Positions 3,141 through 9,119 are shown, counted from the stretch's first letter. The stretch: DNA of 64,000 bases from the human T2T-CHM13v2.0 reference genome, Homo sapiens (GCF_009914755.1 NC_060929.1), one strand, 5' to 3'. Notes: generated from the letters alone by a model not told the origin. Numbers and translations: made by a program.

Positions 3141-5964
3141 AGTGGGTTTACCAGTAAATTTCTTCACCAGTTTCCCATAACTGGGCATTTGGTTTACATT
3201 CTTGTTGTTGTTGCTGTTGTGTTTATAGACTTATTTCACATTATACTTACAGAAGCTTCTGTGGGGATTTTTTAGTTTATGGATAAGGACATCAGGACAA
3301 TCAGTTACAGTAAACTGCCTAAGCTGTTCTCTTATGCTGTGTACCCTTAAGAATAAAAGAAATTTTGTTCTTTTTCTGAATCGTTGTCACAGATGGGATG
3401 TGCTCTGTGGAAGCTTAGGAACATCTAAGCTACTGTAATGTACTCTTGCTTAAGTCATTTAAAGATGGACAGAGGTGCTGAGAACTAAGTAAATATGACA
3501 ATAAGAAGCGGGAATGGTAGGGCCTTAGGTGCCCACCTGCAGACTAGAGTGCTCCGTAGGGCCAGGCTGTGCCCCGAGCACATCTGGGGTGTATGGCCGG
3601 TGTCTGATACACATCTCAGAACACAGAGTGGAACAGAAGAGAATCAAAAAGCTGCTTCACCTTCAGCAACAATACATGCCAGTGTTGCTTTTCCATAGGA
3701 ATAAAAAGTGATGAATCTAAAATTACATGATATTTTGCTGTAAATAGCAGCTATTTTTATTATCTGCTAATAATAGAATGAAGATAAAATACATTTAACT
3801 TTTGCATTAAAAAAAATGTCCCTGGTGCACTTATCAACATATGAAAAAAAAAACAGTGGCTGGAAATATTTATTTATTTATTTATATTTTTTGAGACTCA
3901 CTCTGTCACCCACGCTGTAGTGCAGTGGTATGATCATGGCTCATTGCAGCCTCAATCTCCTGGGCTCAAGCCATCCTCCCACCTCAGCCTCCTGAGTAGC
4001 TGGGACTACAGATGTGTGCCACCATGCCTGACTATTTTTTTTTGGTATTTTTTGTAGAGATGGGGTTTTGGCAGGTTGCCCAGGCTGGGAAATATTTATT
4101 TTTATTTATTGGTTTCACTAACTCTCTATCCAGTTGCTTTTGACCACATCATCTGCCAACAACGGGGCTTAACTTGTGTTCTGGGATGCTCTTATTATGG
4201 GGTTGAGGAGAGGAGAGACTTTGATGCTACCTTGGGCCTTTCCATCTGTAATTCAACTCCCCACCTCACCCTTCAATGCAGTCAGAAGGCCCCCTCAGAC
4301 TTACGGGGCTCCTGGGAGCTGTAGGATCCGTAGAGCCCCTTGCCACACACGCTGGGTCCCGGGCCCCTCAGGAGGGTCAGGCCCTGGGCAGGACATGGTG
4401 AGAGTGAGCAGACAGCAGGCCCTGTGGAGGAAAGGGTGGACTCAGGCCAAATGCCTAGCGGGGATGGGGTGACAGATACTCTCCTGCCCTCACCTGCCTT
4501 CACCTGCGGTGGCCTGCAAGTACAGCTCTGAGGCAGCTTTTGAGTCAGACACCTCCACTTCAGTGGCATCTTCTACCACCCTGGAGGAAGCAGAGGCTGA
4601 GCTCAGCTCCGAAGCACCAGGGTTCTGTCCAGACCCCCAGAACCTCCATGTGGGGAGCCCTTGGAGGTCCCCATAGCCTATAACCTCCCTAAACATTTCT
4701 CATCCTCATGATTTTATTTTCCCTCCTGTGAACAGGGTAGTTGAGATCACTCCCATTTTCAGATGGAGAAACTGAAGTCCTGCTCAGTGAGATGCTCAAA
4801 ATCACCCAGTGTGACAATGACTGAGTCAGGACATGGGGCTGGGGAATAGAGTTGAGGTGGTGTAAGTTGAAGAGTTGTAAGTGGGGTGAGGGGAGTGAGA
4901 GGGATGGGCACATAAGATTAAGGAAGAGGGTGGGAGGGGATCCTGAGAGCAGCCCCTGACCCTGTAAGCATGACCCCAAGCTCAGAGCTTTCTTCCCCTG
5001 GGATGGCAGTGGGTGGAGACCCCCAAAAGCTCGGCTTCAGGGAGGCAGCCATGCCTTAAGACAAGCACCCTCAGACTCCACTGGGCCCTGAACACTCACA
5101 AGCCCAGAGGGGACACGTCCAGCACCGACAGGTTCTCCACCCCTGGAGAGAGCAGGTCCTGGGTCCTTCCACTGGGGCTGAACTGGGGTCACACAAGCAC
5201 ACTTGTTACAAACTGAACCTTTCCCTACTTTCAGCTCACATGATCCTCCTGGGGTCCAAACATGGCACCATGAATTCAGCCTTTTTGCAGTCAGAGGAGA
5301 GGAGACCTCAGAGAGGCACGCCCATGCCAGTGAGCAGTAGAGTGAGACTGGACACACACTCTCTGGCTCCCCACAAACCTCGGGCTCCTTCTGCAACATT
5401 GCCCTGGCCCTGGTTCCCAGGTCCCACTCTCTCCCCTCCCTCAAGGGTCTCACCTGCACCAGGCTAAGAGTGCTAAGCACAGGATCAGAGCAGCTGAGGG
5501 GCAGAGCTTCTTCAAACAGCATCTGCAGCAGCTAAAGTGGAGAAGCGTTCAATGAGGATTAAGAAAGCATGAATCTGTCCTTCAGCATTTCCTGAGCATG
5601 AAGTCTGAGTCATGCCCCATACTACTGGGGACATGGTATCCAGGAGAGAAATAGCACCAGTCTTCTTCTTCACAGCAAGCCAGAAAGTGAGCAGACATCC
5701 TCAGTGGGATCTGCTGTTTGCTGCACAGGGATCCACGACAAGTTCTGAGGCAGCTATTTTGGTTTGGGGGCATTTTGACGAAGCCCCCACAATAAAGCTT
5801 CCAAGCTTATAATTAGTATTCACCATGAACTGTGAAAATCAGATCTCCCTGGATATTTGATCTTTTCATGCCACCCCTCTCTAACCCTCACCCTATCAGC
5901 CCATCTTCCTTTATTTTATTTTTTAATTAAAAAAAAAATTTTTTGTTTTGCCTTTTTTTTTTTT

Positions 5965-7177
5965 GGTATACTTTTGGCTTTATTTCCAGCTTTTAAAAAA
6001 AATTTTATTATTATTACACTTTAAGTTTTAGGGTACATGTGCACAATGTGCAGGTTAGTTACATATGTATACATGTGCCATGCTGGTGTGCTGCACCCAT
6101 TAACTCGTCATTTAGCATTAGGTATATCTCCCAGTGCTATCCCTCCCCCCTCCCCCCACCCCACAACAGTCCCCAGAGTGTGATGTTCCCCTTCCTGTGT
6201 CCATGTGATCTCATTGTTCAATTCCCACCTATGAGTGAGAATATGCGGTGTTTGGTTTTTTGTCCTTGCGATAGTTTACTGAGAATGATGATTTCCAATT
6301 TCATCCATGTCCCTACAAAGGACATGAACTCATCATTTTTTATGGCTGCATAGTATTCCATGGTGTATATGTGCCACATTTTCTTAATCCAGTCTATCAT
6401 TGTTGGACATTTGGGTTGGTTCCAAGTCTTTGCTATTGTGAATAGAGCCGCAATAAACATACGTGTGCATGTGTCTTTATAGCAGCATGATTTATAGTCC
6501 TTTGGGTATATACCCAGTAATGGGATGGATGGGTCAAATGGTATTTCTAGTTCTAGATCCCTGAGGAATCGCCCCACTGACTTCCACAATGGTCGAACTA
6601 GTTTACAGTCCCACCAACAGTGTAAAAGTGTTCCTATTTCTCCACATCCTCTCCAGCACCTTGAGCTGTGGTGAGCTCCACCCAGTTCCAGCTTCCCTGC
6701 TACTTTGTTTACCTAAGCAAGCCTGGGCAATGGCGGGCGCCCCTCCCCCAGCCTCGCTGCCGCCTTGCAGTTTGATCTCAGACTGCTGTGCTAGCAATCA
6801 GCGAGACTCCGTGGGCATAGGACCCTCCGAGCCAGGTGCGGGATGTAATCTTCTGGTGCCCCGTTTTTTAAGCCCGTCAGAAAAGCGCAGTATTGGAGCG
6901 GGAGTGACCCGATTTTCCAGGTGCCGTGTGTCACCCCTTTCTTTGACTAGGAAAGGGAACTCCCTGACCCCTTGCGCTTCCCGAGTGAGGCAATGCCTCG
7001 CCCTGCTTTGGCTCACGCACGGTGTGCTGCACCCACTGTCCTGCGCCCACTGTCTGACACTCCCTAGTGAGATGAACCCGGTACCTCAGATGGAAATGCA
7101 GAAATCACCCGTCTTCTGCGTCGCTCACGCTGGGAGCTGTAGACCTGAGCTGTTCGTATTCGGCCATCTTGACTCCC
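5965..7177 (-). mobile_element. L1PA element with large internal deletion (5'UTR fused to ORF2 end/3'UTR) and short 3' transduction
   Basis: 7177-6661 is L1 5'UTR (caagatggccgaata...cacagctcaag); 6660-6003 is the ORF2 C-terminus and 3'UTR (ORF 6218-6589, CCYKDTCTRMFIAALF); apparent TSD gcc(t)10 at 5950 and 7185. Confidence 0.9.
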
Positions 7178-7187
7178 GAAAAACGCC

Positions 7188-7480
7188 TTTTTTTTTTGAG
7201 ACGGAATTTTGCTCTTGTCGCCCAGGCTGTAGTGCAATGGCATGATCTCGGCTCACTGCAACCTCTGCCTCCCAGATTCAAGTGATTCTCCTGCCTCAGC
7301 CTCCCAAGAAGCTGGGATTAAAGGTGTCCGCCACCACGCCCAGCTAATTTTTGTATTTTTAGTAGAGATGGGGTTTTGCCATGTTGGCCAGGCTGGTCTT
7401 GAACTCCTGACCTCAGGTGATCCACCCACCTCGGCCTCCCAAAGTGCTGGGATTACAGGTGTGAACCACCACGCCCGGCC
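7188..7480 (-). mobile_element. AluS element
   Basis: Full Alu consensus, reverse orientation. Confidence 0.9.
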
Positions 7481-9119
7481 CCTTCCCACCTTCCATGACC
7501 TCCCAGTAGCTGCATAAATTGACCTTGGCAAAACATCTTGCGTGGACCAACAGGATGCTTGCTGTAGGAGCCCCAGTGAGGGCTGATGTGGGGAGGGAAG
7601 ATTCTCAGAAGTCTCCGGGGAAGGTAACCCCTGAGCTGCATGAGGCCTGCGCCCTGGTGGCTCCTCTGGGACTCACCTGAGGCACAAGTCGGGGTGCCTC
7701 TGTTTCCCTCCCCCGGAGCAACAGGGCCACACTGTACCCTCGGCCCAGAGAGCCCAGTGTGGATTGGACACGTGCCAGCAGCTCCTGCTCTGCCTCCTGC
7801 AGGGACACACAGGCACAGTCCACTGACTCAGGTGCCCTGAGCAAAGGAGCTCTGGAGGCAGCTGGCACTCCAGGATCCAGGGGCCTGAGGGCTCCCACCC
7901 TCCTCTCATCACCCTCCCAGACCTCCCTACCTGAGCAGCATCAGGGCCCAGGACTGTCAAAGGTGAAGTTTTGTTCCTGTGGGCAGGGCTGGGGTCAACC
8001 ATGATATTCCCATCTTCCCCTGCACTCCCCGCCCCACTCCCCTCCCCCCCACCCCCCACCCCAACACACACACAACGCCCATCCACCTGAGTCTCTAGAG
8101 TCCCAAAATGAAGCAAACAGAGGTTTGTGGGCCCCACCAGGTGTGTGGGGCTACAGCTGTCCTCAGGGCCTGAGAAAGGTAGACTGCATATCAGCTCTCA
8201 TGAGGAAAACTGGCTCTGGGATTCCTGAGTTCTGCCCTCAAACTTTGCCTCAGTTTTCCAACCTAAGGTGGCCTAACCCTCCCCCTCTTCCAAGAGGCTG
8301 TCCTGGACTGCATTCCTTCGGAGTATAAATGGGGAGGGCATCTTACCTGAACCCCTCCCCGACTCCACTTCTACCACCACGGTCAGCATGGCATGTGGGT
8401 TGGGAGAGACCATGAGGGCCCCTCAAGGAGGCTGAGTTGCCTGGGCCAAACCAGCCCCTGCGCTCACCACCTCTCCACAGTCCATGCCCTCTATGCCTCT
8501 CAGCTTCCCCTCAATAATTCATGAATCTCATCTGAGGGCTAGGGAGGGGTGGATCTGGACCTCGTAACCTACTAAGGGAAGTGACATTCCCTTCTCTTGT
8601 GAGAGAACACTGCATAAGTTTCTTTTATTTTTTTCCTTTTATGAAAACTTTCAAACATGTATAACACTGGAGAGAATAGTATAATGAACCTCCAGGTACC
8701 CAGCTTCAGAAATTACCAAATTCTGGCCAGTCTTACTTCTTTTGTTCTCCTCCCATCCCCAGCGGATTATTTTGAAGCAAATCTCAGACATCCCAGTATT
8801 TTATCCATAACTAGTTCAGTATACCACAGTTAATTTTAGAACGTTTCCATCACTTCATAAGGAAATTTGGTTCCCTTTAGCTATTGCCTCCCTAACCCAA
8901 GCCCACTGCACCCTCCAACCCTAAGCAACCACTCTTCTATTTTCTGCCTTTACAGATTAGCCAATTCTGGACATTTCATATAAATAGAATTATACACTGT
9001 GTGGCCTTTTGTGTCTGTTTTTTTCCATTTAGCATTATATTTTCAGTGTTCATCTACGTTGTAGCATGTCTGAGTACTTCTTCCCTTTCTACTGTGGATA
9101 ATGTTTCATAATAGAGTTC

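What the first reader, a model, noticed from the sequence alone, without database searches (positions are those of the whole stretch)
4305..7976. Hidden spliced kinesin-like gene downstream of CD14, invisible in the ORF track
Seen: six minus-strand exons with polypyrimidine-AG acceptors and GT(A/G)AG or GTAGG donors. Five of them (120+78+83+87+117 nt) join in exact phase with no stop: EAEQELLARVQSTLGSLGRGYSVALLLRGRETEAPRLVPQ-LLQMLFEEALPLSCSDPVLSTLSLVQ-FSPSGRTQDLLSPGVENLSVLDVSPLGL-VVEDATEVEVSDSKAASELYLQATAGEGR-ACCLLTLTMSCPGPDPPEGPGTQRVWQGALRILQLPGA. Knowledge: the order mirrors a kinesin motor domain (FTFD..Q; GYN.tifayG; LF; DLL; V.gl.e..V; RSH.if.i; L.lVDLAG). Inference: a single-copy ancestral gene. 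I recall a kinesin-domain gene (E230025N22Rik) at the syntenic mouse position, which needs checking.
Basis: partly seen in the sequence, partly recalled or inferred. Interest (0 to 1): 0.85.

Follow-up and report, generated by a model that had tools for sequence, protein, structure and literature searches.

The report
Damaged human copy of dead kinesin
These exons are the human copy of an old vertebrate gene (mouse E230025N22Rik) that descends from a kinesin motor but has lost its ATP-binding motifs, and in this human genome its conserved reading frame is broken in several places.

Summary
All six minus-strand exons have AG acceptors and GT donors, and the five-exon join is open for 161 aa.

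The exons are real coding sequence. The 40-aa exon alone finds 127 proteins, 70-98% identical, from all major placental groups. These include mouse LOC240216, named 'Riken cDNA E230025N22 gene'.

Kinesin ancestry is not visible in the human peptide itself:
- Pfam finds nothing in the single exons.
- Only 6 of 35 placental orthologs give weak, sub-threshold Kinesin hits.

It is decisive at family level:
- Shark, coelacanth and other distant relatives pass the Pfam Kinesin cut-off.
- Family profiles match human kinesin motors at 99.4-99.7%.
- An ortholog model has the kinesin motor fold, Z 21-24.

All placental sequences lack the P-loop, switch I and switch II, so the protein is a catalytically dead kinesin head with a coiled-coil tail.

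The human gene spans about 25 kb, beyond the window and beyond the RefSeq model. Its conserved frame carries a 2-bp deletion, a lost splice donor and a nonsense codon. It is single-copy.

The RefSeq coding sequence uses a non-conserved frame and a repeat-derived exon.

The parts
8347..8413 (-). Conserved exon 1, coding part. It starts at the ATG at 8413 (MVSPNPHAMLTVVVEVESGRGS..) and lies inside the first exon of the RefSeq model (8347-8670).
   Evidence: It aligns to the N-termini of the monkey and lemur orthologs. The donor is gtaaga. An in-frame stop lies just upstream, where lemurs continue with a longer N-terminus.
8087..8169 (-). Conserved exon 2 (83 nt, GPEDSCSPTHLVGPTNLCLLHFGTLETQ). 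It is absent from the exon list given for the one RefSeq transcript.
   Evidence: tblastn with orthologs finds it. The acceptor is ..tttctcag and the donor gtggat, and it is in phase with exon 1.
7931..7976 (-). Conserved exon 3, the 'FTFD' exon. It is 46 nt in human where orthologs encode 16 residues (48 nt). The 2-nt loss shifts the frame and gives a TGA four codons on.
   Evidence: Frame 0 reads EQNFTFDSPGP-stop and frame 1 reads ..VLGPDAAQ. Macaque, lemur and other orthologs read EQSFTFDRVLGPDAAQ in one frame.
7677..7796 (-). Conserved exon 4 (40 aa). It covers kinesin helix alpha-1, strand beta-3 and the position of the lost P-loop (..GRGYSVALLLRGRETEAP..).
   Evidence: It finds 127 homologs at 70-100% identity. 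Its mapping onto the kinesin motor comes and the P-loop columns. The RefSeq coding sequence reads this exon in another frame.
7085..7226 (-). A repeat-derived 142-nt exon of the RefSeq model. It is not part of the conserved gene.
   Evidence: No ortholog has a counterpart. Bases 51-142 match dispersed copies at 95-99% identity. All 40 scored candidates of 711 matched: the locus itself, 37 copies covering only the last ~90 bases, and 2 full-length copies at 82%. The exon length is 1 mod 3, so including it shifts the conserved frame.
5454..5531 (-). Conserved exon 5 (26 aa, LLQMLFEEALPLSCSDPVLSTLSLVQ). It covers kinesin helix alpha-2 and strand beta-4.
5100..5182 (-). Conserved exon 6 (83 nt). 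It holds the invariant D-L-L that corresponds to the kinesin 'DLL' motif.
   Evidence: These columns are invariant.
4494..4580 (-). Conserved exon 7 (87 nt, VVEDATEVEVSDSKAASELYLQATAGEG..). It covers kinesin beta-5 to alpha-3.
4305..4421 (-). Conserved exon 8 (117 nt). It is present in 15 of the 35 aligned ortholog models. It covers strands beta-6 and beta-7 and the degenerate switch II (..ALRILQLPGA).
   Evidence: The next conserved exons lie left of the window at about -10993..-11126, -12537..-12745, -12818..-12868, -15212..-15370, -16123..-16278 and -16360..-16518.

Best explanation
The finding covers exons 3 to 8 of the human ortholog of mouse E230025N22Rik. This is a single-copy gene present across placental mammals, with relatives in sharks, rays and the coelacanth.

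The gene arose from a kinesin. Its N-terminal ~330 residues keep the kinesin motor fold and are followed by a long coiled coil.

In all placental sequences examined, the three nucleotide-handling elements are gone:
- The P-loop region has an 11-residue gap and no G-K-S/T.
- Switch I is absent.
- Switch II reads ILQLPGA.

The placental protein therefore cannot work as an ATP-driven motor. Inferred: it most likely acts as a dimeric, nucleotide-independent kinesin-fold binding or scaffolding protein, a 'dead kinesin'.

Shown: in this human genome the conserved reading frame is interrupted by a 2-bp deletion in exon 3, loss of the GT donor after the penultimate coding exon, and a TGA in the last coding exon. 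The RefSeq transcripts end early and include a repeat-derived exon.

Inferred: the human locus is most likely a transcribed, spliced, recently disabled (unitary) pseudogene, or at best encodes truncated isoforms.
For: Orthology and copy number:
- Exon 4 finds 127 proteins, the listed ones from placental mammals.
- A vole ortholog finds Mus musculus LOC240216, named 'Riken cDNA E230025N22 gene', rat rCG62907, and a hamster protein named 'Kinesin, motor domain containing protein'.
- A lemur ortholog matches only C5:141095482-141120485 in the human genome, 10 of 10 matches.

Kinesin ancestry:
- A profile of 35 placental orthologs finds 238 proteins at E<=1e-3.
- Of 22 of these scanned against Pfam, 14 exceed the Kinesin cut-off of 29.3 bits (up to 97.7 bits), 5 hit below it, and 3 close mammal-like ones do not hit.
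- hhalign of the distant set against four human kinesin motors gives 99.7%, E 3.4e-26, over 263 columns.
- The 50-sequence family alignment, with the lemur protein as master, gives 99.4%, E 6.6e-22, over 255 columns.
- The distant-set profile hits 150 PDB kinesin sequences at E<=1e-5.

Fold:
- The AlphaFold2 model of the lemur ortholog has mean pLDDT 79.3, with the head mostly 85-95.
- Every listed Foldseek hit is a kinesin motor, apart from two chains of a sperm-axoneme entry that the output does not name. The best E is 2.6e-18.
- VIA-align gives Z 21-24 over 270-336 residues.

Dead site: the P-loop, switch I and switch II columns are shown, against the kinesin consensus.

Human lesions: exon table, splice sites and translations are, and the alignment to primate orthologs is.

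RefSeq frame and repeat exon.
Against: Against kinesin ancestry being demonstrable from the human sequence:
- The human peptide shows no significant kinesin similarity. Pfam finds 0 families in 9 exon or ORF translations.
- The genome-wide PF00225 scan lists 131 matches and none at this locus.
- A 4-sequence home-made profile gives only E 0.012-0.1 for one target.
- The placental profile alone is marginal: 6 of 35 members hit Pfam Kinesin, all below the cut-off; one PDB hit at E 0.38; hhalign 38%. The first AlphaFold2 run, with placental sequences only, failed (mean pLDDT 45.5).

Against the pseudogene reading:
- Exons 4-11 form an uninterrupted 879-nt frame with AG/GT sites.
- Human differs at only 8 of 211 columns that are >=90% conserved, which is mid-range among orthologs.
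- The human lineage shows no excess of amino-acid change over macaque: 15 against 19 of 455 sites, p=0.61.
- Exon 3 is missing from many ortholog models. Skipping it would keep the human frame from exon 2 into exon 4.
- Only one human genome was examined, so the lesions could be polymorphic or private.
- The function of the intact protein is untested anywhere. The papers found give only gene-list mentions.
Confidence: 0.72

Rival explanations
1. The human gene still codes. Transcripts that skip the damaged 46-nt exon 3 and the repeat exon keep the conserved frame from the ATG at 8413 through exon 11. They would produce a shortened, dead-kinesin-like protein with a changed or truncated C-terminus. 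The lesions trim the protein rather than kill the gene.
For: - Exon 2 ends and exon 4 begins in phase 0, and exons 4-11 are open for 879 nt.
- Exon 3 is absent from many predicted ortholog isoforms, for example squirrel monkey, sifaka, mole and rabbit.
- There is no excess of human substitutions.
- The TGA lies in the last coding exon and would cut off only the final ~50 residues.
- The locus is transcribed. It has RefSeq models and appears in an isoform-switch table from human blood RNA-seq (passage only).
Against: - Exon 3 encodes a core strand of the kinesin fold.
- The listed RefSeq transcript includes exon 3 and the frame-shifting repeat exon, skips exon 2, and ends about 5 kb short of the conserved 3' exons (hub table).
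- The penultimate coding exon has no in-frame GT donor.
- Exon 11 lacks the 11 residues that monkeys encode at its end.
- Three adjacent substitutions hit a motif that is >=90% conserved (PDVALQFF to PDVARPLF).
- No hominoid protein model appears among the 120 listed hits or the 120. Clustering at 90% identity could hide one.
Confidence: 0.24
2. The locus encodes a working kinesin motor, an overlooked active member of the KIF family.
For: The fold and overall architecture (motor head plus coiled coil) are those of a kinesin. Shark relatives keep a Walker-A-like G....GKS and a DLTGE switch II.
Against: All 24 full-length placental rows of the family alignment, and the human exons, lack the G-K-S/T of the P-loop and have an 11-residue gap there. 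They have no SSRSH-like switch I and no D..G.E switch II (kinesin consensus).
Confidence: 0.02
3. The exons are a chance open frame, or a gene-prediction artefact, with an accidental likeness to kinesin.
For: Direct searches with the human peptide find no family, and the home-made profile is weak.
Against: Exon-by-exon conservation with more than 100 mammalian proteins. Collinear matches at one locus only. Transitive profile links to kinesins at E 1e-22 to 1e-36.
Confidence: 0.01

Closest known systems
Mouse E230025N22Rik (LOC240216) and its uncharacterised mammalian orthologs
   Same: Same family by sequence. The mouse protein is found with a vole ortholog at E 3.3e-186, and human exon 4 is 70-98% identical to the placental set. 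The proteins share the architecture of a kinesin-like head plus a C-terminal coiled coil.
   Different: The human copy has a 2-bp deletion, a lost splice donor and a nonsense codon in the conserved frame. No function is published in the papers found, which give only gene-list mentions.
Canonical kinesin motor domain (Pfam PF00225; e.g. KIF4, KIF1A, KIF15, kinesin-8 structures)
   Same: Same fold and same order of secondary-structure elements. The distant relatives pass the Pfam cut-off. No single kinesin family stands out: the best PDB hits are kinesin-8 at 1e-36, KIF4 at 8e-36, and KIF13B/KIF1A at about 1e-33.
   Different: The P-loop, switch I and switch II are missing in placentals. Placental sequences fall below the Pfam cut-off. 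NCBI names the shark members 'KIF4-like', but that subfamily assignment was not tested by a tree here.
Kinesin-family proteins reported to lack normal motor ATPase activity (KIF26A/B, KIF7/Costal2, C. elegans VAB-8; recalled, not from any call)
   Same: The concept is the same: a kinesin-fold head kept as a binding module after losing motor chemistry, attached to a coiled-coil or scaffolding tail.
   Different: As I recall, those proteins keep a recognisable nucleotide pocket. Here the P-loop itself is deleted in placentals. No sequence comparison with them was run.
Human unitary pseudogenes of kinesins such as KIF28P (recalled, not from any call)
   Same: A single-copy ancestral gene that is intact in other mammals and disrupted in human, yet still transcribed.
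   Different: Fixation of the lesions in humans was not tested here. The amino-acid substitution rate shows no relaxation, so any loss would be recent or partial.

Membership tests
Kinesin superfamily (motor domain, Pfam PF00225) | Significant sequence match of the sequence itself to the kinesin motor profile | tested here: not met
   Human exons or ORFs: 0 families in 9 translations. The locus is absent from 131 genome-wide PF00225 matches. Placental orthologs: 6 of 35 hit, best E 7.3e-4, all under the 29.3-bit cut-off.
Kinesin superfamily (motor domain, Pfam PF00225) | Homology to kinesin motors shown through family profiles (transitive) | tested here: met
   The placental profile finds distant relatives at E 1e-81 to 1e-11. 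Of 22 scanned, 14 pass the Pfam cut-off. hhalign gives 99.7% and 99.4% with a placental master sequence. 150 PDB kinesin sequences hit at E<=1e-5.
Kinesin superfamily (motor domain, Pfam PF00225) | Kinesin motor fold | tested here: met
   This rests on a predicted model of the lemur ortholog, not of the human product. The head has pLDDT mostly 85-95. Foldseek top hits are kinesin motors, best E 2.6e-18. VIA-align gives Z 21-24, rmsd 3.5-5.8, over 270-336 aligned residues.
Kinesin superfamily (motor domain, Pfam PF00225) | Walker A P-loop (G-Q-T-G-x-G-K-T in the kinesin consensus) | tested here: not met
   Human reads LLLRGRETEAP-RLVPQ. All placental rows have an 11-residue gap and no G-K-S/T. 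Shark rows keep G....GKS.
Kinesin superfamily (motor domain, Pfam PF00225) | Switch I (SSRSH) and switch II (DLAGSE), as in the consensus | tested here: not met
   Human and placental sequences read ..EGRACCLLTLT.. and ..LRILQLPGA.. at these columns. Sharks keep DLTGE but not SSRSH.
Kinesin superfamily (motor domain, Pfam PF00225) | Microtubule-stimulated ATPase or motility | not testable with these tools
   This needs biochemistry.
E230025N22Rik ortholog group | Best-matching, collinear, single locus in the genome for the family's proteins | tested here: met
   All 10 genome matches of the lemur protein lie at this locus, in exon order (the tool used a stricter first look, so weak extra matches could be missed).
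E230025N22Rik ortholog group | Conserved synteny (between SLC35A4 and CD14) | not tested
No mouse or other mammalian genome is available in these tools, so the mouse position is recalled only.
Unitary pseudogene | Disabling lesions in the ancestral reading frame | tested here: met
   Exon 3 is 46 nt instead of 48 nt, which gives a stop. The penultimate coding exon is followed by 'cc', not 'gt', and neither downstream GT (+7 and +23 nt, read off the sequence printed) is in frame. There is a TGA at codon 3 of the last coding exon.
Unitary pseudogene | Lesions fixed in the species, with relaxed constraint | tested here: inconclusive
   Only one human genome was seen. The relative-rate test shows no excess (15 against 19, p=0.61). 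8 of 211 conserved columns are changed.
Unitary pseudogene | No intact paralogous copy elsewhere in the genome | tested here: met
   One search finds this locus only.

The most novel reading that the evidence does not exclude
Jawed vertebrates carry an unrecognised, orphan kinesin lineage that is outside the named KIF set. Its head progressively lost ATP chemistry: a Walker A and a D..G.E switch II are still present in sharks, and the P-loop is deleted in placentals. The gene was nevertheless kept for hundreds of millions of years as a nucleotide-independent kinesin-fold dimer. Humans, and perhaps all apes, have recently lost it. That would make it a lineage-specific loss of a conserved cytoskeletal pseudoenzyme.
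Probability: 0.35. Interest if true: 0.7.

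Novelty: new member of a known kind. Interest (0 to 1): 0.55.

Why it matters
Kinesins are among the best-catalogued gene families. A further vertebrate-wide kinesin-derived gene is known only as 'uncharacterized LOC' or a RIKEN clone name. No functional paper was found: three full-text searches returned 6, 1 and 0 papers, and the four papers read mention the gene only in lists or tables.

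The family shows how a motor head can be kept after losing its nucleotide site. It offers a graded natural series, from shark to placental, for asking what a kinesin fold does without ATP.

For human annotation:
- The conserved coding frame and two conserved features (exon 2, and the 3' exons about 5 kb beyond the RefSeq end) are not in the current model.
- The current predicted protein is built partly from a wrong frame and a repeat.
- The human copy looks damaged. If the lesions are fixed, this is a candidate human or ape gene loss, and mouse knock-out results would not transfer to people.

Tried and rejected
- Pfam on single exons and on the stop-to-stop ORFs around them found 0 families. 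One search failed because one 15-aa piece was too short, and I resent the call without it.
- The genome-wide PF00225 scan did not list the locus.
- A home-made HMM from four human kinesin motors against the script-joined human peptide gave E 0.012-0.1, collinear but not significant.
- The placental-only profile against PDB gave one kinesin hit at E 0.38. Against the kinesin alignment it gave 38%.
- The first AlphaFold2 run, with 35 placental sequences, failed for the head (mean pLDDT 45.5). It became informative only after distant relatives were added.
I dropped that step and ranked orthologs by alignment-column occupancy instead.
- Rfam on window 1-10000 found nothing.
- Pfam on the 164-aa ORF inside the intronic repeat (6221-6712, minus strand) found nothing. 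Calling that repeat an L1 therefore rests on recall plus its copy number.
- The Atlas look-up for the taxa of the intermediate relatives gave only 'Chordata', so I cannot say which non-placental tetrapods they are.
- I considered that the three adjacent changes PDVALQFF to PDVARPLF were a pair of compensating frameshifts. I rejected that, because the human codons shown stay in frame throughout. That each change is a single-base substitution is my inference, as no ortholog DNA was available.
- I could not resolve the exact exon structure of the variable linker (about -12868 to -15212). It was left out of the conceptual protein and represented by X.

Full report
**1. The observation**

I read window 4200-8700 on the minus strand and extracted the exons by coordinate.
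- Each of the six exons follows a pyrimidine-rich tract ending in AG and is followed by GT. The donors are gtaggg, gtgagt, gtgaga, gtgagt, gtgagg and gtaagt.
- The five exons of 120+78+83+87+117 nt join to 485 nt with no stop.
- The sixth exon (7931-7976, 46 nt) reads ..QNFTFDSPGP-stop in one frame and ..LTVLGPDAAQ in the next.
- RefSeq model XM_047444563.1 uses the same exons plus a 142-nt exon (7085-7226). It starts at an ATG inside exon 7931-7976 and reads exon 7677-7796 in a different frame.

**2. The exons are real coding sequence**

- The 40-aa translation of exon 7677-7796 found 127 proteins at E<=1 among 5.8 billion. The 120 listed run from E 2e-15 to 5.6e-7, at 70-100% identity.
- The named proteins come from primates, bats, moles and shrews, ruminants, whales, carnivores, horses, rodents, rabbit, tree shrew, Afrotheria and armadillo.
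- They are 360-690 aa long and are mostly called 'uncharacterized protein LOC...'. Three carry the UniRef name 'Kinesin motor domain-containing protein'.
- No hominoid protein is named in the 120 rows or the 120 rows. The database is clustered at 90% identity, so one could be hidden inside a monkey cluster.
- A vole ortholog as query retrieved 192 proteins at E<=1e-30. They include Mus musculus LOC240216, named 'Riken cDNA E230025N22 gene', rat rCG62907, and a hamster protein named 'Kinesin, motor domain containing protein'.
The mouse map position could not be checked here.
- A lemur ortholog (P0052) searched against the whole human assembly matched only C5:141095482-141120485 on the minus strand. 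All 10 matches lie there, in exon order. The tool warned that weak matches may be missed. The gene is single-copy in human.

**3. Is it a kinesin?**

Direct tests on the human sequence fail:
- Pfam finds nothing in nine exon or ORF translations.
- A six-frame PF00225 scan of the human genome lists 131 matches and none at this locus.
- A profile I built from four intronless human kinesin motors (loci L001-L004) scores the script-joined peptide at only E 0.012-0.1 for a single target. The alignments fall at the expected, collinear places.

The placental orthologs alone are also marginal:
- 6 of 35 hit Pfam Kinesin at E<=1. The best is 7.3e-4, and all are below the 29.3-bit cut-off.
- Their profile finds one PDB sequence, a kinesin heavy chain, at E 0.38.
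- hhalign against the kinesin alignment gives 38% probability, P 3.3e-4, over 120 columns.

The family as a whole is decisive:
- The placental profile searched against 1.84 billion representatives found 238 proteins at E<=1e-3.
- I scanned 22 of the longer ones with Pfam. 14 exceed the Kinesin cut-off (31.4 to 97.7 bits), 5 hit below it, and 3 close mammal-like sequences have no hit.
- NCBI names these distant relatives 'chromosome-associated kinesin KIF4/KIF4B-like' in sharks and a skate. They are uncharacterised in a stingray and the coelacanth.
- Their alignment (A3) matches the human kinesin motors at 99.7%, E 3.4e-26, over 263 columns. It hits 150 distinct PDB kinesin sequences at E<=1e-5. 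The best are kinesin-8 at 1e-36, KIF4 at 8e-36, and KIF13B and KIF1A at about 1e-33.
- A 50-sequence alignment with the lemur protein as master (A4) still gives 99.4%, E 6.6e-22, over 255 columns. Lemur residues 70-316 map onto motor positions 34-328.

The predicted fold agrees:
- With A4, AlphaFold2 gives a confident head: mean pLDDT 79.3, with most 10-residue blocks between residues 30 and 375 at 85-95. The first run, with placental sequences only, had failed (45.5).
- Foldseek finds at least 355 PDB chains at E<=0.001. The listed top hits are kinesin motors, best E 2.6e-18.
- VIA-align gives Z 21-24 over 270-336 residues at rmsd 3.5-5.8 for KIF15, Eg5, KLP-6, KIF13B, kinesin-1 and others.
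- The model is of the lemur ortholog, and its alignment contains only family members.

**4. A kinesin head without its chemistry**

I printed the family-alignment columns that correspond to the three nucleotide-handling elements of the kinesin consensus (consensus, columns).
- **P-loop.** All placental rows, and the human exon, read LLLRGRETEAP followed by an 11-residue gap, with no G-K-S/T. The intermediate relatives also lack it. Shark rows keep G-T-Y-A-S-G-K-S.
- **Switch I.** No row has an SSRSH-like motif.
- **Switch II.** Placentals read ..RILQLPGA. Sharks read ..IFDLTGE.

Behind the head lie a variable linker and a long, confidently predicted helix (residues 442-592 of the model).

It is shown that the placental proteins lack the residues that bind and hydrolyse ATP in kinesins. 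It is inferred that they act as dimeric, nucleotide-independent binding or scaffold proteins. Whether they still bind microtubules is unknown.

The family evolves quickly. Placental orthologs are 65-80% identical to the lemur protein. A hare study reports dN/dS above 1 for this gene (PMC6065068, passage read).

**5. The human gene is larger than annotated, and damaged**

I fetched the 20 kb left of the window and mapped orthologs onto it with tblastn. I then read the splice sites.

| Exon | Window coordinates (minus strand) | Note |
|---|---|---|
| E1 | 8413-8347 | |
| E2 | 8169-8087 | Not in the listed RefSeq transcript |
| E3 | 7976-7931 | 46 nt; frameshifted |
| E4 | 7796-7677 | |
| E5 | 5531-5454 | |
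| E6 | 5182-5100 | |
| E7 | 4580-4494 | |
| E8 | 4421-4305 | |
| E9 | -10993..-11126 | |
| E10 | -12537..-12745 | |
| E11 | -12818..-12868 | Shortened; weak donor |
| Linker | about -12868..-15212 | Variable; not resolved |
| E14 | -15212..-15370 | Three adjacent substitutions |
| E15 | -16123..-16278 | No GT donor |
| E16 | -16360..-16518 | In-frame TGA |

The gene therefore spans about 25 kb. The RefSeq gene ends at -11917.

Lesions relative to the conserved frame:
- (a) E3 is 46 nt where macaque, baboon, lemur and most other orthologs encode 16 residues (EQSFTFDRVLGPDAAQ). The frame shifts after FTFD and hits TGA.
- (b) E15 is followed by 'cc', not 'gt'. The two downstream GTs, read off the sequence printed, would add 7 or 23 nt. 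Neither is in frame, and the junction codon that encodes Q or R in orthologs has no counterpart.
- (c) The third codon of E16 is TGA where orthologs have R (..QVFRAW..).
- (d) E11 lacks the 11 residues that monkeys encode at its 3' end, and it has a weak donor, gtctgc.
- (e) Three adjacent substitutions change the >=90%-conserved PDVALQFF to PDVARPLF.
- (f) An in-frame stop lies upstream of the ATG at 8413, where lemurs continue with a longer N-terminus. Monkey models also start at the downstream Met.

The extra RefSeq exon 7085-7226 has no counterpart in any ortholog.
- Its bases 51-142 match dispersed genomic copies at 95-99% identity.
- All 40 scored candidates of 711 matched. Besides the locus itself, 37 cover only the last ~90 bases, and 2 cover the full length at 82%.
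- I recall this sequence as the 5' end of an L1 element behind an Alu tail. No call names it.
- Including the exon shifts the conserved frame.

**6. Evidence against an old pseudogene**

- E4-E11 form an uninterrupted 879-nt frame.
- At columns where >=90% of 35 orthologs agree, the human conceptual protein differs at 8 of 211 (3.8%). The orthologs range from 0.9 to 14.7%.
- With squirrel monkey as outgroup, the human lineage has 15 private amino-acid changes and the macaque lineage 19, out of 455 sites (p=0.61).
- Skipping E3 would keep the frame, and many ortholog models lack E3. E3 does encode a core strand.
- The locus is transcribed. It has RefSeq models and is listed in an isoform-switch table from human blood RNA-seq (PMC10946588, passage read).
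- Only one human genome was available, so I cannot say whether the lesions are fixed.

Taken together, I put about 0.7 on a recently disabled gene, or one that yields only truncated products. I put about 0.25 on a still-functional shortened product.

**7. Surroundings**

- No Rfam family lies in window 1-10000.
- There is an (AC)20 microsatellite at 3095-3134 and a poly-A run at 1589-1631.
- The intron between E4 and E5 holds an Alu-like and an L1-like insertion on the gene's strand (read; copy number). It overlaps a RefSeq 'enhancer' feature (hub table).
- The large intron between E8 and E9 holds HAUS1P1 and a snoRNA (hub table).

**8. Comparison and novelty**

The closest known things are the uncharacterised E230025N22Rik orthologs and canonical kinesin motors. 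Both are placed by the tests above.

Two further comparisons are by recollection only: kinesin-family proteins with impaired motor chemistry (KIF26A/B, KIF7/Costal2, VAB-8), and kinesin unitary pseudogenes such as KIF28P.

- The locus meets family-level homology and fold for the kinesin superfamily. It fails the direct profile cut-off and all three catalytic motifs. I file it as kinesin-derived, not as a working kinesin.
- The locus and its orthologs are already in the databases. Some carry an automatic 'kinesin motor domain' label, so the gene's existence is not new.
- Full-text searches found only gene-list mentions: 6 papers for E230025N22Rik, 1 for LOC112267855, 0 for LOC240216, and 1 unrelated paper for 'pseudokinesin'. 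I read passages in 4 of these papers, and the others only as listings.
- Subscription journals and supplementary tables were not searched.

I rate it a new, undescribed member of a known kind, of moderate interest.

Noticed in passing
window 8087-8169 (-): A conserved 83-nt coding exon (GPEDSC...GTLETQ) with AG/GT sites. It is in phase with the exons on either side and present in most ortholog proteins. It is absent from the exon list given for the one RefSeq transcript.
   Followed up: yes
left of the window, about -10993 to -16518 (L009/L010 = C5:141092001-141112000): Six or more further conserved coding exons of the same gene lie beyond the window. The last five lie beyond the annotated 3' end of LOC112267855 (-11917). 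The gene ends within about 1 kb of the 3' end of SLC35A4.
   Followed up: yes
window 7085-7226 (-) and the intron 5900-7500: The extra RefSeq exon is cut from a young dispersed repeat (95-99% identical copies genome-wide). It sits in an intronic insertion that I recall as an internally deleted L1 behind an Alu, on the same strand as the gene. A RefSeq 'enhancer' feature (6357-7306) overlaps it.
   Followed up: partly
just after the exon ending at about -11126: Reading through this donor gives ..GGQGESVEFFGKL-stop in human. A marmot protein model (P0064) ends with a similar read-through tail (..GKGVGFFGKL). A short read-through isoform may therefore be shared between species, or the likeness may only reflect a conserved intron start.
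   Followed up: no
ortholog models (alignment A1): Predicted isoforms in many species drop exon 3 (48 nt) and/or exon 8 (117 nt). Both exons are in-frame and both encode core strands of the kinesin fold. The rhesus macaque model P0005 reads exon 9 out of frame. Such models may hide lesions, or may reflect real alternative splicing.
   Followed up: partly
window 3095-3134: A perfect (AC)20 microsatellite. It lies inside the long alternative terminal exon (1830-4421) of the other RefSeq transcript.
   Followed up: no
fold search rows 9ijj_c/d and 7n61_0X: The model's head plus long helix also aligns over its full length to chains of the sperm/ciliary central-apparatus structures, at 11-17% identity. 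The output does not name these chains, and the similarity may only reflect the motor-plus-coiled-coil architecture. A ciliary or testis role was not examined.
   Followed up: no
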